NCBI GenBank assembly: GCA_040285855.1
Contig: JAUFOQ010000004.1
Location: 2,046,001-2,110,000 of the forward strand
DNA from: Eukaryota sp. GEM-RC1
Taxonomy: Eukaryota
Reading direction: 5' to 3'
Length of the DNA stretch: 64,000 bases
A program made the translations under genes and the position numbers. Below the pieces are notes generated by a model. That model was not told the origin of the DNA, searched no databases, and worked only from the letters and a program-made list of their open reading frames with translations. This document shows, one piece after another, positions 1 through 60,921 of the stretch (positions within the stretch are counted from its first letter, which is position 1; each line of letters starts with the position of its first letter).

Positions 1-377
1 AGCTTCAGCAATTGCAATAGCGCCTTCAGGACCAATTGAGTTGTTTCTTAGATCGATCGTAGAAGCCTCATTTCTCACCATCTGATCATAACAATTCTTC
101 AACTTAGAGCTCAGCTTTCTCCAATCAATAACAAGTTTCTTCTCTTCAACTTGCTGGACAGGAGATACATGTTTAACCGATTTGATTGGTAAAACAGTGT
201 CATCTTGGGAGGTAGAAGAAGCAACACTGGATTCAGAATCCACAGACAGAGAGGTTAAACGACGGGAAGCAGCAGAGTAGACTGACAAAAGTTCTTCATT
301 TAGGGAGGAGATGATGGAGGACTGGTGTTGAAGATGGGTGGAAGTAGTTGTAATGAATTGTTCGTTAATCTTTGGTT
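1..377 (-). pseudogene. 5'-truncated LRR cassette (3' part outside window)
   Basis: Same junction (+ strand ...gttaatctttggtt|ggaaaatacag) and same linker plus first LRR as the other cassettes. Confidence 0.85.
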
Positions 378-1381: not shown

Positions 1382-2202
1382 TTAGAAACGCATTCTATTC
1401 TTGTGTAGTGATTTTAATGACTGTTGTGTTTGACTGTTGATTGAGTTGTTAGATAGATAGATCACAGTAACAGACGAATTCAACTTTAAAGCTTCAGCAA
1501 TTGCAGTAGCGCCTTCATTACCAATTGAGTTGTTATGTAGATAGATCACAGTAACAGACGAATTCAACTTTAAAGCTTCAGCAATTGCAGTAGCGCCTTC
1601 ATTACCAATTGAGTTGCTAGATAGATCGATCCTAGTAACAGACGAATTCAACTTTAAAGCTTCAGCAATTGCAATAGCGCCTCCAGGACCAATTGAGTTG
1701 TTATGTAGATAGATATCAGAAACAGACGAATTCAGCTTTAAAGCTTCAGCAATTGCAATAGCGCCTTCAGGACCAATTGAGTTGTTATGTAGATAGATCC
1801 TGCTAACAGACGAATTCACCTTTAAAGCTTCAGCAATTGCAATAGCGCCTTCAGGACCAATTGAGTTGTTTCTTAGATCGATCGTAGAAGCCTCATTTCT
1901 CACCATCTGATCATAACAATTCTTCAACTTAGAGCTAAGCTTACTCCAATCAATAACAAGTTTCTTCTCTTCAACTTGCTGGACAGGAGATACATGTTTA
2001 GCCGATTTGATTGGTAAAACAGTGTCATCTTGGGAGGTAGAAGAAGCAACACTGGATTCAGAATCCACAGACAGAGAGGTTAAACGACGGGAAGCAGCAG
2101 AGTAGACTGACAAAAGTTCTTCATTTAGGGAGGAGATGATGGAGGACTGGTGTTGAAGATGGGTGGAAGTAGTTGTAATGAATTGTTCGTTAATCTTTGG
2201 TT
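1382..2202 (-). pseudogene. 5'-truncated LRR cassette, 6 LRR strands, frame intact
   Basis: Homology to the full gene starts at PKINEQ. An in-frame TAA lies 7 codons upstream. The ORF-track 'M' is a TTG Leu codon. Equals gene B minus two repeats. Confidence 0.85.
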
Positions 2203-3206: not shown

Positions 3207-4911
3207 TTAGAAACGCATTCTATTCTTGTGTAGTGATTTTAATGACTGTTGTGTTTGACTGTTGATTGAGTTGTTAGATAGATAGATCACAGTAACAGAC
3301 GAATTCAACTTTAAAGCTTCAGCAATTGCAGTAGCGCCTTCATTACCAATTGAGTTGTTATGTAGATAGATCACAGTAACAGACGAATTCAACTTTAAAG
3401 CTTCAGCAATTGCAGTAGCGCCTTCATTACCAATTGAGTTGCTAGATAGATCGATCCTAGTAACAGACGAATTCAACTTTAAAGCTTCAGCAATTGCAAT
3501 AGCGCCTCCAGGACCAATTGAGTTGTTATGTAGATAGATATCAGAAACAGACGAATTCAGCTTTAAAGCTTCAGCAATTGCAATAGCGCCTTCAGGACCA
3601 ATTGAGTTGTTATGTAGATAGATCCTGCTAACAGACGAATTCAACTTTAAAGCTTCAGCAATTGCAATAGCGCCTCCAGGACCAATTGAGTTGTTATGTA
3701 GATAGATATCAGAAACAGACGAATTCAGCTTTAAAGCTTCAGCAATTGCAATAGCGCCTTCAGGACCAATTGAGTTGTTATGTAGATAGATCCTGCTAAC
3801 AGACGAATTCACCTTTAAAGCTTCAGCAATTGCAATAGCGCCTTCAGGACCAATTGAGTTGTTTCTTAGATCGATCGTAGAAGCCTCATTTCTCACCATC
3901 TGATCATAACAATTCTTCAACTTAGAGCTAAGCTTACTCCAATCAATAACAAGTTTCTTCTCTTCAACTTGCTGGACAGGAGATACATGTTTAGCCGATT
4001 TGATTGGTAAAACAGTGTCATCTTGGGAGGTAGAAGAAGCAACACTGGATTCAGAATCCACAGACAGAGAGGTTAAACGACGGGAAGCAGCAGAGTAGAC
4101 TGACAAAAGTTCTTCATTTAGGGAGGAGATGATGGAGGACTGGTGTTGAAGATGGGTGGAAGTAGTTGTAATGAATTGTTCGTTAATCTTTGGTTTAAAG
4201 ACTACGGGTTTTCCTGTCTTCAAGTCATTCATAATAGCACAAGAATCCAGCATAGTTTCTTCCAGTAGCAAAGTTAGGCTCTCTTTAATTCGGGTAAATC
4301 CAGTCGTTGCTTGCTGTAGTGCATATTCAGCTGATTGTGTAACCTTTTCAATAGCCACAGACAACTCCTGATTGATAGAGTTTATATTCTGTTCAACGGA
4401 GGCTCGACCTTCATCAAAGGGAAGCAACTTCTTCTTGTGCTGGTCATGATCACCAAGGATAGCACACGTTGAGCATAGGGCAACAGAACAAGAAGTACAG
4501 AAGAGGTCAAAGGATTTGGAAGCATGTATCGGACATTTAGGCACAATGGATGCGTGTTTCTTTTGCAGGGGAATAGCAACATGGGATCGGAAGAGTTTCG
4601 GTCGATGAGTATCCTTAAAGCATTGGTCGCATAAATCGGCATTACATTCAGCACAATAACAAGTCGCAGCAGCTTCATCACACTCAAAACAAACAGATTC
4701 CCCCCTGTCCAGCAACGAAAGCTTCAATGGCCTCCTTCAACTTGTAGTTAGGACAGAGCCTTGACTTGTCCACCTCAGCTCGGCAGATCGGACACCCATC
4801 ATGAGAAACAAGCCACTCCTGTAAATCCGACATACAAAAGGTGTGGCCACACCAAGTAGTTACCGGATTCTTGAGGATTTCATGACAAATGTCACAGAGG
4901 TAGTGAGACAT
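3207..4911 (-). CDS. RING/B-box1/B-box2/coiled-coil/LRR (TRIM-like E3 ligase) gene B, 8 LRR strands; +1 frameshift in C-run 4700-4705
   Basis: ORFs 4684-4911 (RING CDICH...CGHTFC...CPICR) and 3207-4727 together are colinear with intact gene A. The run is C6 here versus C5 in gene A. Confidence 0.85.
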
Positions 4912-5468: not shown

Positions 5469-6635
5469 CTGTCAGGCACCAATTAGTGACCCACCTCCTA
5501 ATAGTGCCCCCCTCCTAATAGTGACCCACTTTAGGGGTGGGGCTATAATTTAGTGCCCCAGTGTTGATCAAGATCACACAAATGGGTGATAAAAACAGTC
5601 TTATGTCAATAAAAAGAATAAACGATTAGATTCAGATTTAATAGTGGTATTTGGAACTGTGATGAAACTGCCATATTTTGTGAACCAAATGAATCAAGAA
5701 CAATTGATTTTATTGACCAAAAGATTGTTGTTGTTAAGTCTGCAGGTCTCGCAAAGGTACGTTTGACCGGAATCGTTATGGCTAACGCTCTAGGAGTGAA
5801 AAAACTCCTGCCATTATAGCACAAAGATCAGGAAACAGAACCAATAGAGAAGAAGGCTGCTTTATCTTGAAAAGAGAATCATCTTTGATGAATGGAGATT
5901 TATTCATCAAATATCTGCAGTTAATGTTTCCATTGACCAGTAAGGCTGCTGCCAACAGAATGCTATTGGTATTTGATTCAGCTCCTGCCCATCGAAGTAA
6001 GAAGGTCAAGGCTTATCTCAAGGAAAGGGGGTTCAACTATGTTTTGATTCTCGGTGGTTTAACTGGATTATTACAGCCAGCAGACGTCAGTTGGTTCAAA
6101 CCTATGAAAGCAACTATCAGGAATTGTATTGAAGAATGGTTGGAGACTGCACCTGTAACGACCTCCAATCGAGTTAGAGCACCTTTGGCTAACGATATGG
6201 CAAAATGGATGAAAGAGTCGTTGGACAAGTTAAAGAGTGAAGTAATATCAAAATCTTTTCAAGTGTCTTTTCTAGGGCCTTCGCAGACCTTATTGATTTC
6301 TCGCCATCCATCAATCCGTCCTCACTTAGATATCAATAGTTTCGATGCATTATTACCATATTCATCAAGTGATGAGGAGGAAGTAATCGATTTGGATTCA
6401 TCGTCTGATGATGACATCGATGACCTTCTTCAACTCAACAATTCATTGAATTTGGGGATGGATAATGATGTTGTTGCAGTCTTTGACTAGAGTTATATTG
6501 AAATATAAAGTTGTTTTATGGGTCATTTATGAACAAAGACAAAAGGATCCTAATAGTGACCCCCTCCTAATAGTGACCCAGTTTGGGGGTGGGGCTATAA
6601 TTTAGTGACCCGGGGTACTATTTGGCGCCTGACAG
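5469..6635 (+). mobile_element. pogo/Tigger-like (Tc1-mariner superfamily) DNA transposon, internally deleted
   Basis: Imperfect TIRs CTGTCAGGCACCAATTAGTGACCC / GGGGTACTATTTGGCGCCTGACAG, TA at the right flank, subterminal CCTAATAGTG(A/C)CCC repeats at both ends, internal DDE_1 motifs. Confidence 0.9.
5645..6490 (+). pseudogene. DDE_1 (pogo/CENP-B family) transposase fragment
   Basis: Motifs GIWNCDET (~5645-5670), LLVFDSAPAH and GGLTGLLQPADVSWFKPMK, with an acidic tail. No N-terminal DNA-binding domain; frame disrupted upstream of 5867. Confidence 0.85.
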
Positions 6636-7622: not shown

Positions 7623-8530
7623 TTAGAAATAAATTCTATTCTTGTGTAGTGATTTTAATGACTGTTGTGTTTGACTGTCGATTGAGTTGTTACCTAGATA
7701 GATCTCAGTTACAGACGAATTCAACTTTAAAGCTTCAGCAATTGCAATAGCGCCTTCATTACCAATTGAGTTGTTATATAGATTGATCACAGTAACAGAC
7801 GAATTCAACTTTAAAGCTTCAGCAATTGCAATAGCGCCTTCATTACCAATTGAGTTGTTACCTAGATCGATCCTAGTAACAGACGAATTCACCTTTAAAG
7901 CTTCAGCAATTGCAATAGCGCCTTCAGGACCAATTGAGTTGTTATGTAGATAAATCTGAGAAACAGACGAATTCACCTTTAAAGCTTCAGCAATTGCAAT
8001 AGCGCCTTCAGGACCAATTGAGTTGTTATGTAGATAAATCTGAGAAACAGACGAATTCACCTTTAAAGCTTCAGCAATTGCAATAGCGCCTTCATTACCA
8101 ATTGAGTTGTTATATAGATAGATATCAGAAACAGACGAATTCAGCTTTAAAGCTTCTGCAATTGCAATAGCGCCTTCAGGACCAATTGAGTTGTTATCTA
8201 GACTGATCGCAGAAACCTCATTTCTCACCATCTGATCATAACAGTTCTTCAGCTCAGAGCTCAGCTTTCTCCAATCAATAACAAGTTTCTTCTCTTCAAC
8301 TTGCTGGACAGGAGACACACTTTCAGCAGACTTGATTGGTAAAACAAAGGAATCATCTTGAGACCCAACTGAAGCAACACTGGATTCAGAATCCACAGAC
8401 AGAGAGGTTAAACGACGGGAAGCAGCAGAGTAGACTGACAAAAGTTCTTCATTTAGGGAGGAGATGATGGAGGACTGGTGTTGAAGATGGGTGGAAGTAG
8501 TTGTAATGAATTGTTCGTTAATCTTTGGTT
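7623..8530 (-). pseudogene. 5'-truncated LRR cassette, 7 strands
   Basis: Common junction; open frame; 28-aa repeats xxIxLxxNSIG(P/N)EGAIAIAEALK(L/V)NSSV. Confidence 0.85.
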
Positions 8531-9534
8531 GGAAAATACAGTTTGAGTATTAAGGTTATGAGGTTTTTCGGACGTTAAAATCTCACGTTTTTCAACAGGC
8601 TTTCTACATTTACGATTTCCGTTTTCCAGCTGGTTTACAGAATACATATTCATACTCATTACAGTGTAGCTTAGTGAGTGCTAGATAAGTTACTCTATTA
8701 AAGATGTACAAAGATCGGTTCTGTGTGTTGAGACAAATACAAAACAAGATGTGACCTTTAATTAAAGACCATTCACAATCTACGAACAACCAAATTCTAA
8801 CCAGTTGTTAGCACCAAGTGATATATCTAAATACTTTTTTCCAGTTTTCATTGTGGAACTTCTGAACAAATTCTAAACACAAAGTTTTTAACAATACAAA
8901 TTCTTAATTTCGTCAACTGTAAACTTCCCCATAAAGAAACCGTGGAAGCAAAACTTTGATATTGTGGTGTGTTCGTGTTATAACTCCGCCATTTGATTGT
9001 CTCCTGCTGACTGCAAACTATTTTGGCAATTCTTTGTCTATAACTAACAGGTTTATTATGCACATGGCAATGAGTACATATAAAAACACATGTAAAATTA
9101 TCATTGAAAACAAACAAAGCATCATTTAGTTACATTGAATCTTTCAAAAACTTGTTCTTGAGCGAAAATACAATCGTGTTAATTATGAGTCAAAATGTTG
9201 ATGATTCCAAGAGTGTAAACATTCGAAATAATGTAGCATTATTTCAGAAACTAATTACTATCTGGTGTTTTTGACAACAATAGTAAATGAACTACTGAAC
9301 ACGATGTGTCTATTCGCCAGAGTAGTCTTGTATCTGAAAATCTGCTAAGCAGTTTTGGTATTGGTTTCTTTGTGGGTCACTTTGGAGTTGTATTTGAGAT
9401 AATGATTGCTCTGACCTAAACGATATTTGAAGTGTAATACATTCATTCTTTGATGGCTGATGATGATGGTGCTCTTGATAAGAAATCATTTATGATTTTT
9501 GAGTAATGTGATTATATGTCCAAGGAAAATATCT

Positions 9535-10694
9535 TTAGAAATAAATTCTATTCTTGTGTAGTGATTTTAATGACTGTTGTGTTTGACTGTCGATTGAGTT
9601 GTTACCTAGATAGATATCAGAAACAGACGAATTCACCTTTAAAGCTTCTGCAATTGCAATAACGCCTTCATTACCAATTGAGTTGTTAGATAGATCGATC
9701 CTACTAACAGACGAATTCACCTTTAAAGCTTCAGCAATTGCAATAGCGCCTTCATTACCAATTGAGTTGTTAGATAGATTGATCACAGTAACAGACGAAT
9801 TCACCTTTAAAGCTTCAGCAATTGCAATAGCGCCTTCATTACCAATTGAGTTGTTACCTAGATAGATCACAGTAACAGACGAATTCAACTTTAAAGCTTC
9901 AGCAATTGCAATAGCGCCTTCAGGACCAATTGAGTTGTTCTCTAGATAAATCTGAGAAACAGACGAATTCACCTTTAAAGCTTCAGCAATTGCAATAGCG
10001 CCTTCATTACCAATTGAGTTGTTATATAGATAGATATCAGAAACAGACGAATTCACCTTTAAAGCTTCAGCAATTGCAATAGCGCCTTCAGGACCAATTG
10101 AGTTGTTATATAGATAGATATCAGAAACAGACGCGTTCACCTTTAAAGCTTCAGCAATTGCCATAGCGCCTTCATTACCAATTGAGTTGTTACCTAGATT
10201 GATCACAGTAACAGACGAATTCAACTTTAAAGCTTCAGCAATTGCAATAGCGCCTTCAGGACCAATTGAGTTGTTATATAGATTGATCACAGTAACAGAC
10301 GAATTCAACTTTAAAGCTTCAGCAATTGCAATAGCGCCTTCAGGACCAATTGAGTTGTTAGATAGACCGATCGCAGAAACCTCATTTCTTACCATCTGAT
10401 CATAACAGTTCTTCAGCTCAGAGCTCAGCTTTCTCCAATCAATAACAAGTTTCTTCTCTTCAACTTGCTGGACAGGAGACACACTTTCAGCAGACTTGAT
10501 TGGTAAAACAAAGGAATCATCTTGAGACCCAACTGAAGCAACACTGGATTCAGAATCCACAGACAGAGAGGTTAAACGACGGGAAGCAGCAGAGTAGACT
10601 GACAAAAGTTCTTCATTTAGGGAGGAGATGATGGAGGACTGGTGTTGAAGATGGGTGGAAGTAGTTGTAATGAATTGTTCGTTAATCTTTGGTT
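9535..10694 (-). pseudogene. 5'-truncated LRR cassette, 10 strands
   Basis: Common junction; open frame; LRR repeats as in the other cassettes. Confidence 0.85.
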
Positions 10695-11697
10695 GGAAAA
10701 TACAGTTTGAGTGTTAAGGTTATGAGGTTTTTCGGACCTTAAAATCTCACGTTTTTCAACAGGCTTTCTACATTTACGATTTTCGTTTTCCAGCTGGTTT
10801 ACAGAATACATATTCATACTCATTACAGTGTAGCTTAGTGAGTGCTAGATAAGTTACTCTATTAAAGATGTACAAAGATCGGTTCTGTGTGTTGAGACAA
10901 ATACAAAACAAGATGTGACCTTTAATTAAAGACCATTCACAATCTACGAACAACCAAATTCTAACCAGTTGTTAGCACCAAGTGATATATCTAAATACTT
11001 TTTCCAGTTTTCATTGTGGAACTTCTGAACAAATTCTAAACACAAAGTTTTTAACAATACAAATTCTTAATTTCGTCAACTGTAAACTTCCCCATAAAGA
11101 AACCGTGGAAGCAAAACTTTGATATTGTGGTGTGTTCGTGTTATAACTCCGCCATTTGATTGTCTCCTGCTGACTGCAAACTATTTTGGCAATTCTTTGT
11201 CTATAACTAACAGGTTTATTATGCACATGGCAATGAGTACATATAAAAACACATGTAAAATTATCATTGAAAACAAACAAAGCATCATTTAGTTACATTG
11301 AATCTTTCAAAAACTTGTTCTTGAGCGAAAATACAATCGTGTTAATTATGAGTCAAAATGTTGATGATTCCAAGAGTGTAAACATTCGAAATAATGTAGC
11401 ATTATTTCAGAAACTAATTACTATCTGGTGTTTTTGACAACAATAGTAAATGAACTACTGAACACGATGTGTCTATTCGCCAGAGTAGTCTTGTATCTGA
11501 AAATCTGCTAAGCAGGTTTGGTATTGGTTTCTTTGTGGGTCACTTTGGAGTTGTATTTGAGATAATGATTGCTCTGACCTAAACGATATTTGAAGTGTAA
11601 TACATTCATTCTTTGATGGCTGATGATGATGGTGCTCTTGATAAGAAATCATTTATGATTTTTGAGTAATGTGATTTTATGTCCAAGGAAAATATCT

Positions 11698-13193
11698 TTA
11701 GAAACGCATTCTATTCTTGTGTAGTGATTTTAATGACTGTTGTGTTTGACTGTTGATTGAGTTGTTAGATAGATAGATCACAGTAACAGACGAATTCAAC
11801 TTTAAAGCTTCAGCAATTGCAGTAGCGCCTTCATTACCAATTGAGTTGTTATGTAGATAGATCACAGTAACAGACGAATTCAACTTTAAAGCTTCAGCAA
11901 TTGCAGTAGCGCCTTCATTACCAATTGAGTTGCTAGATAGATCGATCCTACTAACAGACGAATTCACCTTTAAAGCTTCAGCAATTGCAATAGCGCCTTC
12001 AGGACCAATTGAGTTGTTATGTAGATAAATCTGAGAAACAGACGAATTCACCTTTAAAGCTTCAGCAATTGCAATAGCGCCTTCAGGACCAATTGAGTTG
12101 TTATGTAGATAAATCTGAGAAACAGACGAATTCACCTTTAAAGCTTCAGCAATTGCAATAGCGCCTTCAGGACCAATTGAGTTGTTATGTAGATAAATCT
12201 GAGAAACAGACGAATTCACCTTTAAAGCTTCAGCAATTGCAATAGCGCCTTCATTACCAATTGAGTTGTTATGTAGATAGATATCAGAAACAGACGAATT
12301 CAGCTTTAAAGCTTCAGCAATTGCAATAGCGCCTTCAGGACCAATTGAGTTGTTAGATAGATAGATCACAGTAACAGACGAATTCAACTTTAAAGCTTCA
12401 GCAATTGCAGTAGCGCCTTCATTACCAATTGAGTTGTTATGTAGATAGATATCAGAAACAGACGAATTCAGCTTTAAAGCTTCAGCAATTGCAATAGCGC
12501 CTTCAGGACCAATTGAGTTGTTATGTAGATAGATATCAGAAACAGACGAATTCAGCTTTAAAGCTTCAGCAATTGCAATAGCGCCTTCAGGACCAATTGA
12601 GTTGTTAGATAGATAGATCACAGTAACAGACGAATTCAACTTTAAAGCTTCAGCAATTGCAATAGCGCCTTCAGGACCAATTGAGTTGTTATGTAGATAG
12701 ATATCAGAAACAGACGAATTCAGCTTTAAAGCTTCAGCAATTGCAATAGCGCCTTCATTACCAATTGAGTTGTTAGATAGATAGATCACAGTAACAGACG
12801 AATTCAACTTTAAAGCTTCAGCAATTGCAGTAGCGCCTTCATTACCAATTGAGTTGTTATGTAGACCGATCGCAGAAACCTCATTTCTCACCATCTGATC
12901 ATAACAGTTCTTCAGCTCAGAGCTCAGCTTTCTCCAATCAATAACAAGTTTCTTCTCTTCAACTTGCTGGACAGGAGACACACTTTCAGCAGACTTGATT
13001 GGTAAAACAAAGGAATCATCTTGAGACCCAACTGAAGCAACACTGGATTCAGAATCCACAGACAGAGAGGTTAAACGACGGGAAGCAGCAGAGTAGACTG
13101 ACAAAAGTTCTTCATTTAGGGAGGAGATGATGGAGGACTGGTGTTGAAGATGGGTGGAAGTAGTTGTAATGAATTGTTCATTAATCTTTGGTT
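11698..13193 (-). pseudogene. 5'-truncated LRR cassette, 14 strands (A-type N-terminus, B-type C-terminus)
   Basis: Common junction; open frame; linker VGSQDDSFV as in gene A, terminus KNRMRF as in gene B. Confidence 0.85.
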
Positions 13194-14196
13194 GGAAAAT
13201 ACAGTTTCAGTATTAAGGTTATGAGGTTTTCTGGACCTTAAAATCTCACGTTTTTCAACAGGCTTTCTACATTTACGATTTTTGTTTTCCAGCAGGTTTA
13301 CAGAATACATATTCATACTCATTACAGTGTAGCTTAGTGAGTGCTAGATAAGTTACTCTATTAAAGATGTACAAAGATCGGTTCTGTGTGTTGAGACAAA
13401 TACAAAACAAGATGTGACCTTTAATTAAAGACCATTCACAATCTACGAACAACCAAATTCTAACCAGTTGTTAGCACCAAGTGATATATCTAAATACTTT
13501 TTCCAGTTTTCATTGTGGAACTTCTGAACAAATTCTAAACACAAAGTTTTTAACAATACAAATTCTTAATTTCGTCAACTGTAAACTTCCCCATAAAGAA
13601 ACCGTGGAAGCAAAACTTTGATATTGTGGTGTGTTCGTGTTATAACTCCGCCATTTGATTGTCTCCTGCTGACTGCAAACTATTTTGGCAATTCTTTGTC
13701 TATAACTAACAGGTTTATTATGCACATGGCAATGAGTACATATAAAAACACATGTAAAATTATCATTGAAAACAAACAAAGCATCATTTAGTTACATTGA
13801 ATCTTTCAAAAACTTGTTCTTGAGCGAAAATACAATCGTGTTAATTATGAGTCAAAATGTTGATGATTCCAAGAGTGTAAACATTCGAAATAATGTAGCA
13901 TTATTTCAGAAACTAATTACTATCTGGTGTTTTTGACAACAATAGTAAATGAACTACTGAACACGATGTGTCTATTCGCCAGAGTAGTCTTGTATCTGAA
14001 AATCTGCTAAGCAGTTTTGGTATTGGTTTCTTTGTGGGTCACTTTGGAGTTGTATTTGAGATAATGATTGCTCTGACCTAAACGATATTTGAAGTGTAAT
14101 ACATTCATTCTTTGATGGCTGATGATGATGGTGCTCTTGATAAGAAATCATTTATGATTTTTGAGTAATGTGATTTTATGTCCAAGGAAAATATCT

Positions 14197-15104
14197 TTAG
14201 AAATAAATTCCATTCTTGTGTAGTGATTTTAATGACTGTTGTGTTTGACTGTCGATTGAGTTGTTAGATAGATCGATCCTACTAACAGACGAATTCACCT
14301 TTAAAGCTTCAGCAATTGCAATAGCGCCTTCATTACCAATTGAGTTGTTAGATAGATTGATCACAGTAACAGACGAATTCAACTTTAAAGCTTCAGCAAT
14401 TGCAATAGCGCCTTCATTACCAATTGAGTTGTTAGATAGATTGATCACAGTAACAGACGAATTCACCTTTAAAGCTTCAGCAATTGCAATAGCGCCTTCA
14501 TTACCAATTGAGTTGTTACCTAGATAGATCCTAGTAACAGACGAATTCACCTTTAAAGCTTCAGCAATTGCAATAGCGCCTTCAGGACCAATTGAGTTGT
14601 TATGTAGATAAATCTGAGAAACAGACGAATTCACCTTTAAAGCTTCAGCAATTGCAATAGCGCCTTCATTGCCAATTGAGTTGTTACCTAGATCGATCCT
14701 ACTAACAGACGAATTCACCGTTAAAGCTTCTGCAATTGCAATAGCGCCTTCAGGACCAATTGAGTTGTTAGATAGACCGATCGCAGAAACCTCATTTCTC
14801 ACCATCTGATCATAACAGTTCTTCAGCTCAGAGCTCAGCTTTCTCCAATCAATAACAAGTTTCTTCTCTTCAACTTGCTGGACAGGAGACACACTTTCAG
14901 CAGACTTGATTGGTAAAACAAAGGAATCATCTTGAGACCCAACTGAAGCAACACTGGATTCAGAATCCACAGACAGAGAGGTTAAACGACGGGAAGCAGC
15001 AGAGTAGACTGACAAAAGTTCTTCATTTAGGGAGGAGATGATGGAGGACTGGTGTTGAAGATGGGTGGAAGTAGTTGTAATGAATTGTTCGTTAATCTTT
15101 GGTT
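14197..15104 (-). pseudogene. 5'-truncated LRR cassette, 7 strands
   Basis: Common junction; open frame. Confidence 0.85.
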
Positions 15105-16107
15105 GGAAAATACAGTTTGAGTATTAAGGTTATGAGGTTTTTCGGACCTTAAAATCTCACGTTTTTCAACAGGCTTTCTACATTTACGATTTTCGTTTTC
15201 CAGCTGGTTTACAGAATACATATTCATACTCATTACAGTGTAGCTTAGTGAGTGCTAGATAAGTTACTCTATTAAAGATGTACAAAGATCGGTTCTGTGT
15301 GTTGAGACAAATACAAAACAAGATGTGACCTTTAATTAAAGACCATTCACAATCTACGAACAACCAAATTCTAACCAGTTGTTAGCACCAAGTGATATAT
15401 CTAAATACTTTTTCCAGTTTTCATTGTGGAACTTCTGAACAAATTCTAAACACAAAGTTTTTAACAATACAAATTCTTAATTTCGTCAACTGTAAACTTC
15501 CCCATAAAGAAACCGTGGAAGCAAAACTTTGATATTGTGGTGTGTTCGTGTTATAACTCCGCCATTTGATTGTCTCCTGCTGACTGCAAACTATTTTGGC
15601 AATTCTTTGTCTATAACTAACAGGTTTATTATGCACATGGCAATGAGTACATATAAAAACACATGTAAAATTATCATTGAAAACAAACAAAGCATCATTT
15701 AGTTACATTGAATCTTTCAAAAACTTGTTCTTGAGCGAAAATACAATCGTGTTAATTATGAGTCAAAATGTTGATGATTCCAAGAGTGTAAACATTCGAA
15801 ATAATGTAGCATTATTTCAGAAACTAATTACTATCTGGTGTTTTTGACAACAATAGTAAATGAACTACTGAACACGATGTGTCTATTCGCCAGAGTAGTC
15901 TTGTATCTGAAAATCTGCTAAGCAGTTTTGGTATTGGTTTCTTTGTGGGTCACTTTGGAGTTGTATTTGAGATAATGATTGCTCTGACCTAAACGATATT
16001 TGAAGTGTAATACATTCATTCTTTGATGGCTGATGATGATGGTGCTCTTGATAAGAAATCATTTATGATTTTTGAGTAATGTGATTTTATGTCCAAGGAA
16101 AATATCT

Positions 16108-17351
16108 TTAGAAATAAATTCTATTCTTGTGTAGTGTTTTTAATGACTGTTGTGTTTGACTGTCGATTGAGTTGTTACCTAGATAGATCTCAGTTACAGA
16201 CGAATTCAACTTTAAAGCTTCAGCAATTGCAATAGCGCCTTCATTACCAATTGAGTTGTTATATAGATTGATCACAGTAACAGACGAATTCAACTTTAAA
16301 GCTTCAGCAATTGCAATGACGCCTTCATTACCAATTGAGTTGTTATGTAGATCGATCCTACTAACAGACGAATTCACCTTTAAAGCTTCAGCAATTGCAA
16401 TAGCGCCTTCATTACCAATTGAGTTGTTATATAGATTGATCACAGTAACAGACGAATTCACCTTTAAAGCTTCAGCAATTGCAATAGCGCCTTCATTACC
16501 AATTGAGTTGTTATATAGATTGATCACAGTAACAGACGAATTCACCTTTAAAGCTTCAGCAATTGCAATAGCGCCTTCAGGACCAATTGAGTTGTTATAT
16601 AGATTGATCACAGTAACAGACGAATTCACCTTTAAAGCTTCAGCAATTGCAATAGCGCCTTCAGGACCAATTGAGTTGTTATATAGATTGATCACAGTAA
16701 CAGACGAATTCAACTTTAAAGCTTCAGCAATTGCAATAGCGCCTTCAGGACCAATTGAGTTGTTATGTAGATAAATCTGAGAAACAGACGAATTCACCTT
16801 TAAAGCTTCAGCAATTGCAATAGCGCCTTCATTACCAATTGAGTTGTTATATAGATCGATCCTACTAACAGACGAATTCACCTTTAAAGCTTCAGCAATT
16901 GCAATAGCGCCTTCATTACCAATTGAGTTGTTATATAGATTGATCACAGTAACAGACGAATTCAGCTTTAAAGCTTCTGCAATTGCAATAGCGCCTTCAG
17001 GACCAATTGAGTTGTTATCTAGACCGATCGCAGAAACCTCATTTCTCACCATCTGATCATAACAGTTCTTCAGCTCAGAGCTCAGCTTTCTCCAATCAAT
17101 AACAAGTTTCTTCTCTTCAACTTGCTGGACAGGAGACACACTTTCAGCAGACTTGATTGGTAAAACAAAGGAATCATCTTGAGACCCAACTGAAGCAACA
17201 CTGGATTCAGAATCCACAGACAGAGAGGTTAAACGACGGGAAGCAGCAGAGTAGACTGACAAAAGTTCTTCATTTAGGGAGGAGATGATGGAGGATTGGT
17301 GTTGAAGATGGGTGGAAGTAGTTGTAATGAATTGTTCGTTAATCTTTGGTT
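16108..17351 (-). pseudogene. 5'-truncated LRR cassette, 11 strands
   Basis: Common junction; open frame; translation identical to the cassette at 20183. Confidence 0.85.
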
Positions 17352-18354
17352 GGAAAATACAGTTTGAGTATTAAGGTTATGAGGTTTTTCGGACCTTAAA
17401 ATCTCACGTTTTTCAACAGGCTTTCTACATTTACGATTTTCGTTTTCCAGCTGGTTTACAGAATACATATTCATACTCATTACAGTGTAGCTTAGTGAGT
17501 GCTAGATAAGTTACTCTATTAAAGATGTACAAAGATCGGTTCTGTGTGTTGAGACAAATACAAAACAAGATGTGACCTTTAATTAAAGACCATTCACAAT
17601 CTACGAACAACCAAATTCTAACCAGTTGTTAGCACCAAGTGATATATCTAAATACTTTTTCCAGTTTTCATTGTGGAACTTCTGAACAAATTCTAAACAC
17701 AAAGTTTTTAACAATACAAATTCTTAATTTCGTCAACTGTAAACTTCCCCATAAAGAAACCGTGGAAGCAAAACTTTGATATTGTGGTGTGTTCGTGTTA
17801 TAACTCCGCCATTTGATTGTCTCCTGCTGACTGCAAACTATTTTGGCAATTCTTTGTCTATAACTAACAGGTTTATTATGCACATGGCAATGAGTACATA
17901 TAAAAACACATGTAAAATTATCATTGAAAACAAACAAAGCATCATTTAGTTACATTGAATCTTTCAAAAACTTGTTCTTGAGCGAAAATACAATCGTGTT
18001 AATTATGAGTCAAAATGTTGATGATTCCAAGAGTGTAAACATTCGAAATAATGTAGCATTATTTCAGAAACTAATTACTATCTGGTGTTTTTGACAACAA
18101 TAGTAAATGAACTACTGAACACGATGTGTCTATTCGCCAGAGTAGTCTTGTATCTGAAAATCTGCTAAGCAGTTTTGGTATTGGTTTCTTTGTGGGTCAC
18201 TTTGGAGTTGTATTTGAGATAATGATTGCTCTGACCTAAACGATATTTGAAGTGTAATACATTCATTCTTTGATGGCTGATGATGATGGTGCTCTTGATA
18301 AGAAATCATTTATGATTTTTGAGTAATGTGATTTTATGTCCAAGGAAAATATCT

Positions 18355-19178
18355 TTAGAAATAAATTCTATTCTTGTGTAGTGATTTTAATGACTGTTGT
18401 GTTTGACTGTCGATTGAGTTGTTATGTAGATAAATCTGAGAAACAGACGAATTCAACTTTAAAGCTTCAGCAATTGCGATAGCGCCTTCATTACCAATTG
18501 AGTTGTTATGTAGATAAATCTGAGAAACAGACGAATTCAACTTTAAAGCTTCAGCAATTGCAATAGCGCCTTCAGGACCAATTGAGTTGTTACCTAGATA
18601 GATCCTAGTAACAGACGAATTCAGCTTTAAAGCTTCTGCAATTGCAATAGCGCCTTCAGGACCAATTGAGTTGTTATGTAGATAAATCTGAGAAACAGAC
18701 GAATTCACCTTTAAAGCTTCAGCAATTGCAATAGCGCCTTCATTGCCAATTGAGTTGTTACCTAGATCGATCCTACTAACAGACGAATTCACCGTTAAAG
18801 CTTCTGCAATTGCAATAGCGCCTTCAGGACCAATTGAGTTGTTAGATAGACCGATCGCAGAAACCTCATTTCTCACCATCTGATCATAACAGTTCTTCAG
18901 CTCAGAGCTCAGCTTTCTCCAATCAATAACAAGTTTCTTCTCTTCAACTTGCTGGACAGGAGACACACTTTCAGCAGACTTGATTGGTAAAACAAAGGAA
19001 TCATCTTGAGACCCAACTGAAGCAACACTGGATTCAGAATCCACAGACAGAGAGGTTAAACGACGGGAAGCAGCAGAGTAGACTGACAAAAGTTCTTCAT
19101 TTAGGGAGGAGATGATGGAGGACTGGTGTTGAAGATGGGTGGAAGTAGTTGTAATGAATTGTTCGTTAATCTTTGGTT
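18355..19178 (-). pseudogene. 5'-truncated LRR cassette, 6 strands (chimeric)
   Basis: First three strands match the cassette at 14197; last three match gene A. Confidence 0.85.
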
Positions 19179-20182
19179 GGAAAATACAGTTTGAGTATTA
19201 AGGTTATGAGGTTTTTCGGACCTTAAAATCTCACGTTTTTCAACAGGCTTTCTACATTTACGATTTTCGTTTTCCAGCTGGTTTACAGAATACATATTCA
19301 TACTCATTACAGTGTAGCTTAGTGAGTGCTAGATAAGTTACTCTATTAAAGATGTACAAAGATCGGTTCTGTGTGTTGAGACAAATACAAAACAAGATGT
19401 GACCTTTAATTAAAGACCATTCACAATCTACGAACAACCAAATTCTAACCAGTTGTTAGCACCAAGTGATATATCTAAATACTTTTTTCCAGTTTTCATT
19501 GTGGAACTTCTGAACAAATTCTAAACACAAAGTTTTTAACAATACAAATTCTTAATTTCGTCAACTGTAAACTTCCCCATAAAGAAACCGTGGAAGCAAA
19601 ACTTTGATATTGTGGTGTGTTCGTGTTATAACTCCGCCATTTGATTGTCTCCTGCTGACTGCAAACTATTTTGGCAATTCTTTGTCTATAACTAACAGGT
19701 TTATTATGCACATGGCAATGAGTACATATAAAAACACATGTAAAATTATCATTGAAAACAAACAAAGCATCATTTAGTTACATTGAATCTTTCAAAAACT
19801 TGTTCTTGAGCGAAAATACAATCGTGTTAATTATGAGTCAAAATGTTGATGATTCCAAGAGTGTAAACATTCGAAATAATGTAGCATTATTTCAGAAACT
19901 AATTACTATCTGGTGTTTTTGACAACAATAGTAAATGAACTACTGAACACGATGTGTCTATTCGCCAGAGTAGTCTTGTATCTGAAAATCTGCTAAGCAG
20001 TTTTGGTATTGGTTTCTTTGTGGGTCACTTTGGAGTTGTATTTGAGATAATGATTGCTCTGACCTAAACGATATTTGAAGTGTAATACATTCATTCTTTG
20101 ATGGCTGATGATGATGGTGCTCTTGATAAGAAATCATTTATGATTTTTGAGTAATGTGATTTTATGTCCAAGGAAAATATCT

Positions 20183-21426
20183 TTAGAAATAAATTCTATT
20201 CTTGTGTAGTGTTTTTAATGACTGTTGTGTTTGACTGTCGATTGAGTTGTTACCTAGATAGATCTCAGTTACAGACGAATTCAACTTTAAAGCTTCAGCA
20301 ATTGCAATAGCGCCTTCATTACCAATTGAGTTGTTATATAGATTGATCACAGTAACAGACGAATTCAACTTTAAAGCTTCAGCAATTGCAATGACGCCTT
20401 CATTACCAATTGAGTTGTTATGTAGATCGATCCTACTAACAGACGAATTCACCTTTAAAGCTTCAGCAATTGCAATAGCGCCTTCATTACCAATTGAGTT
20501 GTTATATAGATTGATCACAGTAACAGACGAATTCACCTTTAAAGCTTCAGCAATTGCAATAGCGCCTTCATTACCAATTGAGTTGTTATATAGATTGATC
20601 ACAGTAACAGACGAATTCACCTTTAAAGCTTCAGCAATTGCAATAGCGCCTTCAGGACCAATTGAGTTGTTATATAGATTGATCACAGTAACAGACGAAT
20701 TCACCTTTAAAGCTTCAGCAATTGCAATAGCGCCTTCAGGACCAATTGAGTTGTTATATAGATTGATCACAGTAACAGACGAATTCAACTTTAAAGCTTC
20801 AGCAATTGCAATAGCGCCTTCAGGACCAATTGAGTTGTTATGTAGATAAATCTGAGAAACAGACGAATTCACCTTTAAAGCTTCAGCAATTGCAATAGCG
20901 CCTTCATTACCAATTGAGTTGTTATATAGATCGATCCTACTAACAGACGAATTCACCTTTAAAGCTTCAGCAATTGCAATAGCGCCTTCATTACCAATTG
21001 AGTTGTTATATAGATTGATCACAGTAACAGACGAATTCAGCTTTAAAGCTTCTGCAATTGCAATAGCGCCTTCAGGACCAATTGAGTTGTTATCTAGACC
21101 GATCGCAGAAACCTCATTTCTCACCATCTGATCATAACAGTTCTTCAGCTCAGAGCTCAGCTTTCTCCAATCAATAACAAGTTTCTTCTCTTCAACTTGC
21201 TGGACAGGAGACACACTTTCAGCAGACTTGATTGGTAAAACAAAGGAATCATCTTGAGACCCAACTGAAGCAACACTGGATTCAGAATCCACAGACAGAG
21301 AGGTTAAACGACGGGAAGCAGCAGAGTAGACTGACAAAAGTTCTTCATTTAGGGAGGAGATGATGGAGGATTGGTGTTGAAGATGGGTGGAAGTAGTTGT
21401 AATGAATTGTTCGTTAATCTTTGGTT
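20183..21426 (-). pseudogene. 5'-truncated LRR cassette, 11 strands
   Basis: Common junction; open frame. Confidence 0.85.
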
Positions 21427-22430
21427 GGAAAATACAGTTTGAGTATTAAGGTTATGAGGTTTTTCGGACCTTAAAATCTCACGTTTTTCAACAGGCTTTC
21501 TACATTTACGATTTTCGTTTTCCAGCTGGTTTACAGAATACATATTCATACTCATTACAGTGTAGCTTAGTGAGTGCTAGATAAGTTACTCTATTAAAGA
21601 TGTACAAAGATCGGTTCTGTGTGTTGAGACAAATACAAAACAAGATGTGACCTTTAATTAAAGACCATTCACAATCTACGAACAACCAAATTCTAACCAG
21701 TTGTTAGCACCAAGTGATATATCTAAATACTTTTTTCCAGTTTTCATTGTGGAACTTCTGAACAAATTCTAAACACAAAGTTTTTAACAATACAAATTCT
21801 TAATTTCGTCAACTGTAAACTTCCCCATAAAGAAACCGTGGAAGCAAAACTTTGATATTGTGGTGTGTTCGTGTTATAACTCCGCCATTTGATTGTCTCC
21901 TGCTGACTGCAAACTATTTTGGCAATTCTTTGTCTATAACTAACAGGTTTATTATGCACATGGCAATGAGTACATATAAAAACACATGTAAAATTATCAT
22001 TGAAAACAAACAAAGCATCATTTAGTTACATTGAATCTTTCAAAAACTTGTTCTTGAGCGAAAATACAATCGTGTTAATTATGAGTCAAAATGTTGATGA
22101 TTCCAAGAGTGTAAACATTCGAAATAATGTAGCATTATTTCAGAAACTAATTACTATCTGGTGTTTTTGACAACAATAGTAAATGAACTACTGAACACGA
22201 TGTGTCTATTCGCCAGAGTAGTCTTGTATCTGAAAATCTGCTAAGCAGTTTTGGTATTGGTTTCTTTGTGGGTCACTTTGGAGTTGTATTTGAGATAATG
22301 ATTGCTCTGACCTAAACGATATTTGAAGTGTAATACATTCATTCTTTGATGGCTGATGATGATGGTGCTCTTGATAAGAAATCATTTATGATTTTTGAGT
22401 AATGTGATTTTATGTCCAAGGAAAATATCT

Positions 22431-23969
22431 TTAGAAATAAATTCTATTCTTGTGTAGTGATTTTAATGACTGTTGTGTTTGACTGTCGATTGAGTTGTTA
22501 TGTAGATAAATCTGAGAAACAGACGAATTCAACTTTAAAGCTTCAGCAATTGCGATAGCGCCTTCATTACCAATTGAGTTGTTATGTAGATAAATCTGAG
22601 AAACAGACGAATTCAACTTTAAAGCTTCAGCAATTGCAATAGCGCCTTCAGGACCAATTGAGTTGTTACCTAGATAGATCCTAGTAACAGACGAATTCAG
22701 CTTTAAAGCTTCTGCAATTGCAATAGCGCCTTCAGGACCAATTGAGTTGTTACCTAGATAGATCCTAGTAACAGACGAATTCAGCTTTAAAGCTTCTGCA
22801 ATTGCAATAGCGCCTTCAGGACCAATTGAGTTGTTCTCTAGATAGATCTCAGTAACAGAAGAATTCACCTTTAAAGCTTCAGCAATTGCAATAGCGCCTT
22901 CAGGACCAATTGAGTTGTTAGATAGACCGATCGCAGAAACCTCATTTCTCACCATCTGATCATAACAGTTCTTCAGCTCGGAGCTCAGCTTTCTCCAATC
23001 AATAACAAGTTTCTTCTCTTCAACTTGCTGGACAGGAGACACACTTTCAGCAGACTTGATTGGTAAAACAAAGGAATCATCTTGAGACCCAACTGAAGCA
23101 ACACTGGATTCAGAATCCACAGACAGAGAGGTTAAACGACGGGAAGCAGCAGAGTAGACTGACAAAAGTTCTTCATTTAGGGAGGAGATGATGGAGGACT
23201 GGTGTTGAAGATGGGTGGAAGTAGTTGTAATGAATTGTTCGTTAATCTTTGGTTTAAAGACTACGGGTTTTCCTGTCTTCAAGTCATTCATAATAGCACA
23301 AGAATCCAGCATAGTTTCTTCCAGTAGCAAAGTTAGGCTCTCTTTAATTCGGGTAAATCCAGTCGTTGCTTGCTGTAGTGCATATTCAGCTGATTGTGTA
23401 ACCTTTTCAATAGCCACAGACAACTCCTGATTGATAGAGTTTATATTCTGTTCAACGGAGGCTCGACCTTCATCAAAGGGAAGCAACTTCTTCTTGTGCT
23501 GGTCATGATCACCAAGGATAGCACACGTTGAGCATAGGGCAACAGAACAAGAAGTACAGAAGAGGTCAAAGGATTTGGAAGCATGTATCGGACATTTAGG
23601 CACAATGGATGCGTGTTTCTTTTGCAGGGGAATAGCAACATGGGATCGGAAGAGTTTCGGTCGATGAGTATCCTTAAAGCATTGGTCGCATAAATCGGCA
23701 TTACATTCAGCACAATAACAAGTCGCAGCAGCTTTATCACACTCAAAACAAACAGATTCCCCCTGTCCAGCAACGAAAGCTTCAATGGCCTCCTTCAACT
23801 TGTAGTTAGGACAGAGCCTTGACTTGTCCACCTCAGCTCGGCAGATCGGACACCCATCATGAGAAACAAGCCACTCCTGTAAATCCGACATACAAAAGGT
23901 GTGACCACACCAAGTAGTTACCGGATTCTTGAGGATTTCATGACAAATGTCACAGAGGTAGTGAGACAT
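22431..23969 (-). CDS. Intact RING/B-box1/B-box2/coiled-coil/LRR (TRIM-like E3 ligase) gene A, 512 aa, 6 LRR strands
   Basis: ATG at 23969. RING CDICH-CGHTFCMSD-CPICR, B-box CFEC..CAEC..LCDQC..H..H, B-box CPIH..FCTSC..LCSTC..H..H, helical segment, Ser-rich linker, 28-residue ribonuclease-inhibitor-type LRRs. Confidence 0.93.
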   Translation of the reverse strand: MSHYLCDICHEILKNPVTTWCGHTFCMSDLQEWLVSHDGCPICRAEVDKSRLCPNYKLKEAIEAFVAGQGESVCFECDKAAATCYCAECNADLCDQCFKDTHRPKLFRSHVAIPLQKKHASIVPKCPIHASKSFDLFCTSCSVALCSTCAILGDHDQHKKKLLPFDEGRASVEQNINSINQELSVAIEKVTQSAEYALQQATTGFTRIKESLTLLLEETMLDSCAIMNDLKTGKPVVFKPKINEQFITTTSTHLQHQSSIISSLNEELLSVYSAASRRLTSLSVDSESSVASVGSQDDSFVLPIKSAESVSPVQQVEEKKLVIDWRKLSSELKNCYDQMVRNEVSAIGLSNNSIGPEGAIAIAEALKVNSSVTEIYLENNSIGPEGAIAIAEALKLNSSVTRIYLGNNSIGPEGAIAIAEALKLNSSVTRIYLGNNSIGPEGAIAIAEALKLNSSVSQIYLHNNSIGNEGAIAIAEALKLNSSVSQIYLHNNSIDSQTQQSLKSLHKNRIYF

Positions 23970-44644: not shown

Positions 44645-45474
44645 ACTGTATTGTAAATGATGACTAAACACAACGACATGTTACAACAATCATATCAGAG
44701 TAAAGCAATAAATTTGACAACAAAACGATGACATATGCATGAGTATGATGTACCAATGTAACGAAAAATTTGATTAGATTTTAAAAATTTGAAAGATTAT
44801 CTGAAGACGAACACAAAGAAATAACATGACCAGTCTAGGTGTTCCTCAACAGTCGAGAACTCACAACTTTTCTCTAACTGGGATTTATTGAACTCAAAAC
44901 ATAACTATCAATAAAACTTCTAAAAACTGATGACATCGTTTAATTCAAAGAAGTGATATGTGAATCACGTCTGGAATCATATGTTCCAAAAATCTAACTT
45001 TTAGAACTGAGTCTGATGATCAAATAAAGCCAATCACAGAACCTTGAAAAAATAAACACATCAGTGGGAATATCTATAGCCGCACTCCATCAAGAGCTGA
45101 CCTCCTAGATGCTATCGGACAAGGTAAAGTGGAAGGAAAAACAGGTTCTGGAAAGGAAGCAGTGGAGATTGTAGTTTCCCTCCCCAAATACAGATACAGT
45201 TGATTCCTGCAGACATGATTAAGGTGACGTGGGGATCATTAAGAACATGAAGAGTAGTCGAGGGGTTCGAGAGAAAAGAAGAAGACGTATTAGATATATT
45301 AGGAAGGACTTGAGTATTCTACAGGAAGCATTTTGATTTAAGTAAATAGCAGTATGCAAAGTAAGATTCGATTTGCCGTAGCGATGTTCTGAAGTCGAAG
45401 TGTTTGATAGAAGACATAAATTTCATAGGTTATGTGATAATGAAGCCAACCAAGTGAAGTTTTTTCTTCTTGAA

Positions 45475-60629: not shown

Positions 60630-60921
60630 ATTTTCCAAGGAAATTGGTAAGTGATATTTTTAGTTCCTGAAGAGGACAACCTTGGAAGATGATCCTCTTT
60701 CAAATCTCACTCTTCCTTGACTCTCAGTGTTGCTATTGATGGTGTAAGACAGACTCTCTGTTTGATTTACGGTTTCTCTGAGGAATGTACACATTGTTGC
60801 TAGTTTGTTTTTCAATCTTGATCTACTGGCGTTTATGCAACTATCAGTGAATGCAATCGTAAAAATCGTCACTTTCAACAACATCTTAAACTGAATGATG
60901 ACAAATTTCATGTCTGCTGAC

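What the first reader, a model, noticed from the sequence alone, without database searches (positions are those of the whole stretch)
7623..22940. Variation concentrates in four solvent-exposed LRR beta-strand codons and is combinatorial
Seen: in the 84-nt module most positions are constant even at synonymous sites, with only minor scaffold variants (P/N, V/L, I/T). The xxIxLx strand varies: first pair SD/SQ/SR/TR/TV/TE/SA, middle Y/D/N/G/S, last H/Y/G/S/E/D. These occur in many combinations (SDIYLH/Y/G, TVINLY/G/S, TVIYLH/S/G, SRIDLS/G/Y/H, TRIDLG, TRIYLG, TEIYLG/E). Known: these x positions form the concave ligand-binding face of LRR solenoids. Inference: diversifying selection plus exchange at sub-module, codon-scale resolution.
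Basis: partly seen in the sequence, partly recalled or inferred. Interest (0 to 1): 0.8.

Follow-up and report, generated by a model that had tools for sequence, protein, structure and literature searches.

The report
Shuffled LRR cassettes behind TRIM ligase
One complete TRIM-like gene in a single-celled eukaryote is followed by seven headless copies of its leucine-rich-repeat end, whose 84-base units have been swapped and recombined so that the predicted binding-face residues vary, which likely lets the gene renew what it recognises and tags with ubiquitin.

Summary
Observation largely confirmed. In 72 modules (7623-22940, minus strand) all 17 listed strand types are present and 59 of 84 bases are invariant. 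Three codons (module positions 3, 5, 7) are hypervariable and lie on the predicted LRR beta-strand; position 2 is only S/T. Replacement changes at strand positions run about 3 times the synonymous rate, scaffold about 0.3 times. Combination is uneven: codons 2-5 fit one mutation tree, while codon 7 is reshuffled against them (at least 7 events). Sub-module exchange is shown directly: a 29-70 nt tract shared with a paralogue 35 kb away, and a chimeric cassette made of cassette U4 and the head gene. A codon-targeted mechanism is not required. The larger feature is the anatomy: one RING-Bbox-Bbox-coiled-coil-LRR (TRIM-like) gene followed by seven headless, in-frame LRR cassettes with near-identical spacers, repeated in a second array. 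Named relatives are all from Skoliomonas-type metamonads. It works like fungal NWD repeats and algal LRR shuffling, but with a TRIM head, no introns and adjacent spare cassettes. Expression, function and the 4.1-kb duplication need reads.

The parts
22431..23969 (-). U0, complete head gene, 512 aa, one unbroken ORF: RING, B-box, B-box, coiled coil, linker, 6 LRR modules, cap
23841..23954 (-). RING/U-box-like finger (residues 6-43; one usual Cys ligand is Asp, read by eye)
   Evidence: Pfam zf-C3HC4_2 E 1.3e-8, U-box E 1.8e-10
23490..23753 (-). two B-boxes (about residues 73-111 and 124-160)
   Evidence: Pfam zf-B_box 2 stretches, E 8.2e-12; TRIM28 alignment E 3.5e-12
23127..23477 (-). predicted coiled-coil helices (about 165-222 and 244-281), low to moderate confidence
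23247..23254 (-). 8-nt microhomology in the head gene at which every headless cassette begins (residues 239-241, just before the second long helix)
20183..21426 (-). U1, headless cassette: second helix, linker, 11 modules, cap, in frame
18355..19178 (-). U2, headless cassette, 6 modules; chimera: first 227 nt of LRR equal U4, last 316 nt equal head gene U0; breakpoint in 18638-18676
16108..17351 (-). U3, headless cassette, 11 modules, identical to U1
14197..15104 (-). U4, headless cassette, 7 modules
11698..13193 (-). U5, headless cassette, 14 modules; last 247 nt and cap shared with second-array units B0/B1
9535..10694 (-). U6, headless cassette, 10 modules; module 3 carries a 70-nt exact run (10123-10192, three diagnostic bases) shared with the paralogue at 45400-46566
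7623..8530 (-). U7, headless cassette, 7 modules
21427..22430 (.). non-coding spacer of about 1.0 kb, repeated after every unit (99.4-100% identical)
14564..22752 (.). direct duplication 14564-18676 / 18638-22752: 0 substitutions, 2 homopolymer indels; one unequal crossover or a misassembly
5469..6635 (+). DDE_1 (pogo-type) transposon remnant with 19-nt terminal inverted repeats, ending array A about 20 nt before the cassette junction position
3207..4911 (-). B0, second head gene (7 differences from U0 in 1170 nt; one extra G in a G run at 4705 shifts the frame), 8 modules
1382..2202 (-). B1, headless cassette, 6 modules, same junction, B0-type linker
1..377 (-). B2, start of a further headless cassette running off the window
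45400..46566 (+). dispersed LRR paralogue (11 modules) that shares the tract seen in U6 module 3

Best explanation
The locus is one complete RING-Bbox-Bbox-coiled-coil-LRR gene followed by seven headless in-frame LRR cassettes whose 84-nt modules have been exchanged in part and whole, and it likely works as a TRIM-type ubiquitin ligase whose predicted concave recognition face is renewed from a likely silent cassette reservoir. Shown: the anatomy, the module mosaic, sharing of tracts between cassettes, head genes and a distant paralogue, and the excess of replacement changes at strand positions 3, 5, 7. Inferred: a microhomology-mediated tandem duplication made the first headless unit; unequal crossing-over and short conversion (tracts of tens of bases, possible because the scaffold is kept near-identical) expand the array and reshuffle it; a crossover or conversion into the head gene gives it a new LRR; selection acts on expressed heads and its variants spread through the pool by concerted evolution. 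Untested: expression, ligase activity, and a defence role against viruses, prey bacteria or other foreign proteins.
For: Head domains and TRIM28 match. Sister TRIM-like proteins of Skoliomonas types carry other C-termini in the same place, while only 4 of the 150 best head-region hits carry this LRR, all GEM-RC1-named. P0002 and P0122 have near-identical heads and different LRR arrays. LRR fold and strand register. Replacement/synonymous ratio 3.1 at strand sites, 0.34 in the scaffold; older paralogues in the window 2.0 and 0.41. One codon per residue at codon 7 across many backgrounds, with no extra mutation needed in a copying model (mu7 fitted 0). Spacer plus linker differ by only 0.3% between cassettes while module orders are scrambled. 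U2 is a U4/U0 chimera and the spacer variants follow it, i.e. an exchange that involves the head gene. U6 module 3 shares an exact 70-nt run with a paralogue on the other strand (0 differences in nt 25-84, nearest array module 3). The same pattern of one block with different position-7 residues occurs inside 4 of 23 family proteins examined.
Against: No event is caught moving cassette sequence into the head: the clearest product (U2) received head sequence, and the reciprocal is only inferred. The intact frames of the cassettes say little, since at 0.3% divergence few stops are expected. The 4.1-kb duplication has 0 substitutions, which a misjoin would also give. The sequence has frame breaks beside homopolymer runs in single-copy genes (read by eye), so its accuracy is imperfect. 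The selection test rests on 17 and 10 changes. One haplotype only, so no polymorphism between cells or isolates. No ligand or phenotype.
Confidence: 0.55

Rival explanations
1. Neutral accordion: the cassettes are a by-product of a recent tandem duplication in a repeat-rich genome. They recombine because they are alike, their strand diversity was selected earlier in expressed paralogues, and they feed nothing useful back to the head.
For: Very recent origin (0.3% spacer divergence); array cut by a transposon; several neighbouring paralogues are broken or truncated; ordinary uniform exchange of about 40 nt fits nearly as well.
Against: The same head-plus-cassette layout occurs twice, and each head's cassettes carry that head's linker type; head and cassette sequences are demonstrably mixed, so return flow follows from the same chemistry.
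Confidence: 0.22
2. Alternative last exons: the head's RING-Bbox-coiled-coil part is spliced (cis or trans) to any of the cassettes, giving eight ligases from one promoter.
For: Each cassette starts right after an AG that is in frame with the LRR, and the head has a GT 18 nt upstream of the same point in phase 0 (read by eye); all cassettes are open.
Against: The 18 nt encode V[FIM]FKP, conserved as protein in paralogues; no CTRAC...YAG branch-acceptor motif (the metamonad consensus is recalled) lies at the junction and no GTATG/GTAAG-type donor near it; the junction reads as a microhomology join.
Confidence: 0.09
3. Part of the pattern is an assembly or polishing product: a misjoin duplicated U1-U2, and mis-mapped reads mixed neighbouring modules.
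For: 0 substitutions in the 4.1-kb duplication; homopolymer indels in spacers and in single-copy genes; 6 of 21 strand types are seen in one unit only, and the cycle count falls to 3 without them.
Against: 15 of 21 strand types recur in two or more units and still need 3 recombinations (some of these units are the duplicate pair); no chimeric codon occurs at position 7; mixing spares codons 2-5, which noise would not; runs of 180-247 nt recur in non-duplicate units; the pattern recurs in proteins on other contigs.
Confidence: 0.1
4. A targeted, codon-level diversifier (retroelement-templated or enzymatic) rewrites the strand codons.
For: Switch rate about 4 times background either side of codon 7 and zero inside codons 2-5 (uncalibrated); 4 module pairs of 42 distinct modules differ only at codon 7, one by two bases.
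Against: No adenine bias (5 of 25 A positions polymorphic, 17 of 59 others); a closed set of reused codons rather than fresh random ones; 12 pairs share everything from codon 7 on with different blocks, as single crossovers give; the excess fades if some blocks are themselves recombinant.
Confidence: 0.04

Closest known systems
Podospora anserina NWD family (het-d, het-e) WD40 repeats (PMC1805685, passages read)
   Same: Near-identical repeats under concerted evolution within and between loci; four codons on the interaction surface under positive selection; pseudogenes keep intact repeats.
   Different: Here the repeat is a 28-aa LRR, the head is RING-Bbox-Bbox-CC rather than HET/NACHT, and the spare repeats sit in tandem headless cassettes directly behind the gene.
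Brown-algal LRR-ROCO genes (PMC11378527, passages read) and Tetrahymena 90-bp-exon LRR genes (PMC6564038, passages read)
   Same: LRR units shuffled by unequal crossing-over; in ROCOs four positively selected sites on the concave face; immune role proposed, not shown.
   Different: There each repeat is an exon between introns and alternative splicing is seen (ROCO); here repeats are contiguous coding sequence and breakpoints fall inside repeats.
TRIM/RBCC ubiquitin ligases (PMC2533329 and PMC3503706, passages read)
   Same: RING, two B-boxes, coiled coil in order, then a C-terminal domain; best solved match of the head is TRIM28.
   Different: C-terminal domain is an RI/NOD2-type LRR; 'LRR' and 'leucine' occur 0 times in both papers' main text; outside animals the second paper reports only the MATH-bearing subfamily A. 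The first long helix is about 60 residues, shorter than in animal TRIMs (recalled).
Expression-site plus silent-cassette systems: Borrelia vlsE, lamprey VLR, trypanosome VSG (recalled; not read)
   Same: One complete gene beside an array of incomplete donors; LRR modules as the varied unit (VLR).
   Different: No evidence here of programmed, one-way or somatic conversion or of a dedicated enzyme; the protein has no signal-peptide-like start (read by eye) and looks intracellular; the clearest event looks like an ordinary crossover.

Membership tests
TRIM/RBCC | N-terminal RING finger | tested here: met
   Pfam zf-C3HC4_2, zf-C3HC4, U-box on residues 4-68; one ligand is Asp (read by eye)
TRIM/RBCC | B-box 1 then B-box 2 after the RING | tested here: met
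   zf-B_box 2 stretches; collinear alignment to TRIM28 39-210, MID1 74-160
TRIM/RBCC | Coiled coil directly after B-box 2 | tested here: inconclusive
   Long helices predicted at 155/165-222 and 244-281 with pLDDT about 45-68; no TRIM_CC Pfam hit at E 0.001
TRIM/RBCC | E3 ligase activity and antiparallel dimer | not testable with these tools
   needs biochemistry
RI/NOD-type 28-residue LRR | 28-aa beta-alpha repeats, LxxLxLxxN strand, solenoid | tested here: met
   period 28 in every unit; NOD2 Z 25.2, rmsd 2.6, 187 aligned
NWD-like hypervariable repeat receptors (works like) | Near-identical repeats exchanged within and between loci | tested here: met
NWD-like hypervariable repeat receptors (works like) | A few surface codons under positive selection, scaffold purified | tested here: met
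   ratios 3.1 and 0.34; small counts
NWD family proper | NACHT domain and WD40 repeats | tested here: not met
   neither domain; not a member
NWD-like hypervariable repeat receptors (works like) | Repeat polymorphism between isolates; non-self recognition | not testable with these tools
   one haplotype only
Exon-shuffling LRR genes (ROCO, Tetrahymena) | One exon per repeat | tested here: not met
   contiguous ORFs
Silent-cassette conversion systems (vlsE/VLR type, recalled) | One complete gene with adjacent incomplete cassettes | tested here: met
   seen in two arrays
Silent-cassette conversion systems (vlsE/VLR type, recalled) | Cassettes not expressed | not testable with these tools
   needs RNA data
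Silent-cassette conversion systems (vlsE/VLR type, recalled) | One-way, programmed copying from cassette to expressed gene | tested here: inconclusive
   sharing between head and cassettes shown, direction not; U2 received head sequence
Diversity-generating retroelement | Adenine-specific variation against a template repeat | tested here: not met
   5 of 25 A vs 17 of 59 non-A positions polymorphic

The most novel reading that the evidence does not exclude
A free-living unicellular metamonad runs an anticipatory receptor system: one expressed TRIM-like ligase gene draws LRR modules and half-modules from a dedicated silent cassette array at a rate high enough to give different cells of a clone different specificities, a VLR/vlsE-like design coupled directly to ubiquitin-mediated destruction.
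Probability: 0.13. Interest if true: 0.9.

Novelty: new variant of a known kind. Interest (0 to 1): 0.62.

Why it matters
Immunity in free-living protists is mostly conjecture. Here a recognition repeat under diversifying selection is fused to a TRIM-type ligase head, so recognition and effector sit in one protein, in a lineage far from animals. The head-plus-cassette layout also makes the question testable in a culturable organism: sequence the single head gene's LRR across clones and see whether it changes using cassette modules. If it does, it is an independent origin of cassette-fed receptor variation. If not, it is still a clean, intron-free record of how repeat receptors diversify (conserved scaffold as recombination substrate, breakpoints inside the binding strand).

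Tried and rejected
No whole genome is held for this window, so other loci were seen only as proteins. Sequencing runs: none was listed; this says nothing on expression. Metagenome scans with the head (46 pattern matches, 0 confirmed) and with a scaffold motif (0) and a viral scan (0) gave no loci. Exact look-up of 7 cassettes and the B0 LRR part from their first in-frame Met: 0 of 8 in the collection; a linker search found only U0 and one model for B2 whose first two residues do not match the contiguous frame, an unverified gene prediction. Homodimer prediction of residues 120-285: no answer (score 0.23, mark 0.32), no evidence either way. A forward simulation of conversion timed out and was replaced by enumeration of single breakpoints. 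Pairwise pN/pS of 9-13 at the four codons was set aside as inflated by site choice and shared ancestry, in favour of counting alleles once. Copying-model p-values are pseudo-likelihood and uncalibrated. U3 was dropped from the linkage tests as a copy of U1; first modules were dropped from pair tests; terminal modules count only for codons 1-10. DGR-type mutagenesis rejected. The VIA-align rows covered only residues 324-512, so the head's fold was not tested by structure. Earlier-findings look-ups returned nothing. Literature: 0 papers for TRIM-LRR, RBCC-LRR, B-box-LRR and like terms; searches listed nothing on such a locus (listings only); the Skoliomonas genome paper has 0 occurrences of 'leucine' in its main text; its supplements were not seen and may list these families. 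Against uniqueness: the ESM Atlas shows clusters combining B-box with LRR_4/LRR_8 (score 0.86, lead only, taxa not recorded), so B-box-plus-LRR proteins probably exist elsewhere.


Full report
What is there. Ten minus-strand ORFs between 1382 and 23987 carry 84-nt tandem repeats. Translation shows a 28-residue LRR. In the finding's interval there are 72 modules in 8 units, U0-U7, of 6, 11, 6, 11, 7, 14, 10 and 7 modules. Only U0 is a complete gene: 512 aa, with RING/U-box, two B-boxes, predicted long helices, a low-complexity linker, LRRs and a cap. Its head best matches TRIM28 among solved structures (E 3.5e-12, residues 39-210). U1-U7 each begin at the same 8-nt microhomology within the head's coding sequence (residues 239-241), are preceded by an in-frame stop about 27 nt upstream (read), and have out-of-frame ATGs before the first in-frame Met. 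Each is preceded by the same 1.0-kb spacer, 99.4-100% identical. A pogo-type DDE element ends the array. Beyond it lies a second head, B0, with 7 differences from U0 in 1170 nt, one of them a frame-shifting extra G in a G run, followed by cassettes B1 and B2 with the same junction.

Organism. The best hits of U0 are all named Eukaryota sp. GEM-RC1; all 6 other hits of the head region are too. Nine of 10 further head relatives looked up are GEM-RC1 or TZLM1-RC. A paper on Skoliomonas metamonads describes a Skoliomonas sp. GEMRC genome of 36.9% GC, 48% repetitive, assembled from nanopore reads with Illumina polishing (PMC11316075, passages and section 6 read). I infer a Skoliomonas-type free-living anaerobe. 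These organisms have many TRIM-like proteins with other C-termini, some SPRY-like by eye; 4 of the 150 best head hits carry this LRR, all GEM-RC1-named. The same module is attached to BTB and kinase domains in other GEM-RC1 proteins.

Checking the observation. All 17 listed strand types are present, 23 in all. 59 of 84 bases are invariant in the 64 non-terminal modules. Positions 3, 5 and 7 have 6, 5 and 6 residues, each with one codon; position 2 is S/T and no more variable than P/N at 13 or V/L at 25. With V344 as position 1, the modelled strands E346-350, E374-378 and so on are positions 3-7 (3-5 in the alignment-based model; LRR pLDDT 77-95). The domain superposes on NOD2 (Z 25.2, rmsd 2.6, 187 residues). 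By established LxxLxLxxN geometry I4 and L6 are buried and x3, x5, x7 face the concave side; exposure was not computed. In 107 distinct modules from 23 family proteins (21 of the 22 GEM-RC1-named hits, plus P0122 and P0123) entropy is highest at 7, 3, 8, 13 and 5.

Selection. With strand positions fixed in advance as 2, 3, 5, 7, 8 and each allele counted once by the path with fewest replacements, array A has 17 replacement changes on 11.6 strand sites, 8 on 51.0 scaffold sites and 10 synonymous changes on 21.4 sites. The ratios to the synonymous rate are 3.1 (p 0.003) and 0.34 (p 0.019). The 35 modules of four older paralogues in the window give 2.0 and 0.41. The counts are small and the test ignores mutation bias.

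Recombination. Without U3, codon 5 against codon 7, three constant bases apart, needs 5 events; the block of codons 2-5 against codon 7 needs 7; codons within 2-5 need none. With array B one incompatibility appears inside the block, and the B2 model adds a TRIN block at protein level. Recurrent mutation is a poor account of codon 7, since TCT, GGT and CAT, two bases apart, recur on several backgrounds with no alternative codon and a copying model fits extra mutation there at zero. That model gives a mean tract near 40 nt, with rates about 4 times background around codon 7 and zero inside codons 2-5, but its p-values are uncalibrated. Under uniform breakpoints 36-51% of novel strands would be new block-by-codon-7 pairs; the observed share has P from 0.0007 to 0.21 by how many blocks are taken as recombinant. 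So breakpoints do fall inside the strand, but targeting to codons is not established. Three direct cases: U6 module 3 shares an exact 70-nt run, with three diagnostic bases spanning 29 nt, with the paralogue at 45400-46566 on the other strand. U5's last 247 nt, cap and spacer variants match array B. U2 equals U4 for 227 nt and U0 for 316 nt, with the switch in the constant scaffold of module 3; U3 equals U1; and the private linker variant follows. One unequal crossover between cassette U4 and the head gene gives exactly U0-U1-U2-U3-U4, and its reciprocal would be a head gene with U4's LRRs (inference). Spacer and linker differ by 0.3% between cassettes while module orders are scrambled, so module exchange outpaces point mutation.

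Artefact risk. The duplication has no substitutions in about 4.1 kb, which fits a very recent event or a misjoin. Frames of single-copy genes in the window break beside homopolymer runs (by eye), so B0's shift may be an error. The module mosaic is harder to blame on the assembly: 15 of 21 strand types recur in two or more units and alone need 3 events (some recurrences are the duplicate pair), no chimeric codon is seen, and one block with several position-7 residues occurs in 4 of 23 family proteins.

How it most likely works. A TRIM-like ligase uses its LRR, in the place where animal TRIMs carry SPRY or NHL, to pick substrates (inference from domain order). A homogenised scaffold lets modules pair out of register, so crossovers and short conversions recombine strand residues within units, between units and with dispersed paralogues. 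Headless cassettes raise the number of donor modules behind U0 from 6 to 72. Selection on expressed heads favours new concave-face residues and concerted evolution spreads them. A defence role is the usual reading of this signature but is untested. Confidence 0.55; rivals are a neutral accordion (0.22), partial artefact (0.10), alternative last exons (0.09) and a targeted diversifier (0.04).

Comparison. The evolutionary mode is that of Podospora NWD repeats, where four surface codons are positively selected and even pseudogenes keep intact repeats (PMC1805685, passages). It also resembles brown-algal ROCO LRRs, with four selected concave sites (PMC11378527, passages), and Tetrahymena LRR genes (PMC6564038, passages). 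It is not a member of these families (no NACHT, no exon per repeat). The TRIM surveys read report no LRR C-terminus and, outside animals, only MATH-bearing TRIMs (PMC2533329, PMC3503706, passages); a search for TRIM-LRR terms found 0 papers, though Atlas clusters with B-box plus LRR exist as leads. The expression-site-plus-cassette layout recalls vlsE and VLR (recalled), but programmed one-way copying is not shown.

Verdict. A real feature and a new variant of a known kind. Interest 0.62.

Noticed in passing
window 5469-6635: The pogo-type element sits about 20 nt from the position where every cassette junction lies in the 1-kb spacer; either chance or a link between this element and the origin of the duplication. 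Its other flank lacks the matching TA.
   Followed up: partly
window 37770-39255, 46913-47962, 37146-37697, 27796-28227, 45400-46566: Five dispersed paralogues of the same family, some RING-Bbox-LRR or RING-LRR with frame breaks, some truncated; 78-87% identical modules. They reach the same strand residues with other codons (e.g. STIDLR, SRIDLY), i.e. parallel change.
   Followed up: partly
window 3890-4010 and matching B1/B2 linkers: The B-array linker differs about 8% from the A-array linker in one 130-nt patch although heads and spacers are over 99% identical; each head's cassettes carry its own linker type.
   Followed up: partly
window 32319-34347: Long coiled-coil gene with five 126-nt repeats at 98% identity; another homogenised coding repeat.
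   Followed up: no
window 52327-58214: Large AAA_11/AAA_12 helicase with cysteine-rich repeats, split over several frames at homopolymer runs; resembles ZNFX1-type helicases (recalled), which would be of interest beside a candidate defence cluster.
   Followed up: no
window 58492-60630: Gene split over three frames with breaks at homopolymer runs; resembles SIT4-associated (SAPS) proteins by recall, no Pfam hit on the part scanned.
   Followed up: no
window 40146-41243, 62413-63504, 50673-51211, 41396-42166, 44084-44644: Repeated ORF fragments that look like retroelement remnants by recall (96% identical pair; no Pfam hit for two scanned) and a gag-like ORF with a zinc knuckle.
   Followed up: no
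proteins P0127-P0138: Skoliomonas-type genomes hold an expanded TRIM-like family with varied C-termini, some SPRY-like by eye; TRIMs of this RING-Bbox-Bbox-CC form outside animals were not reported in the two surveys read.
   Followed up: partly
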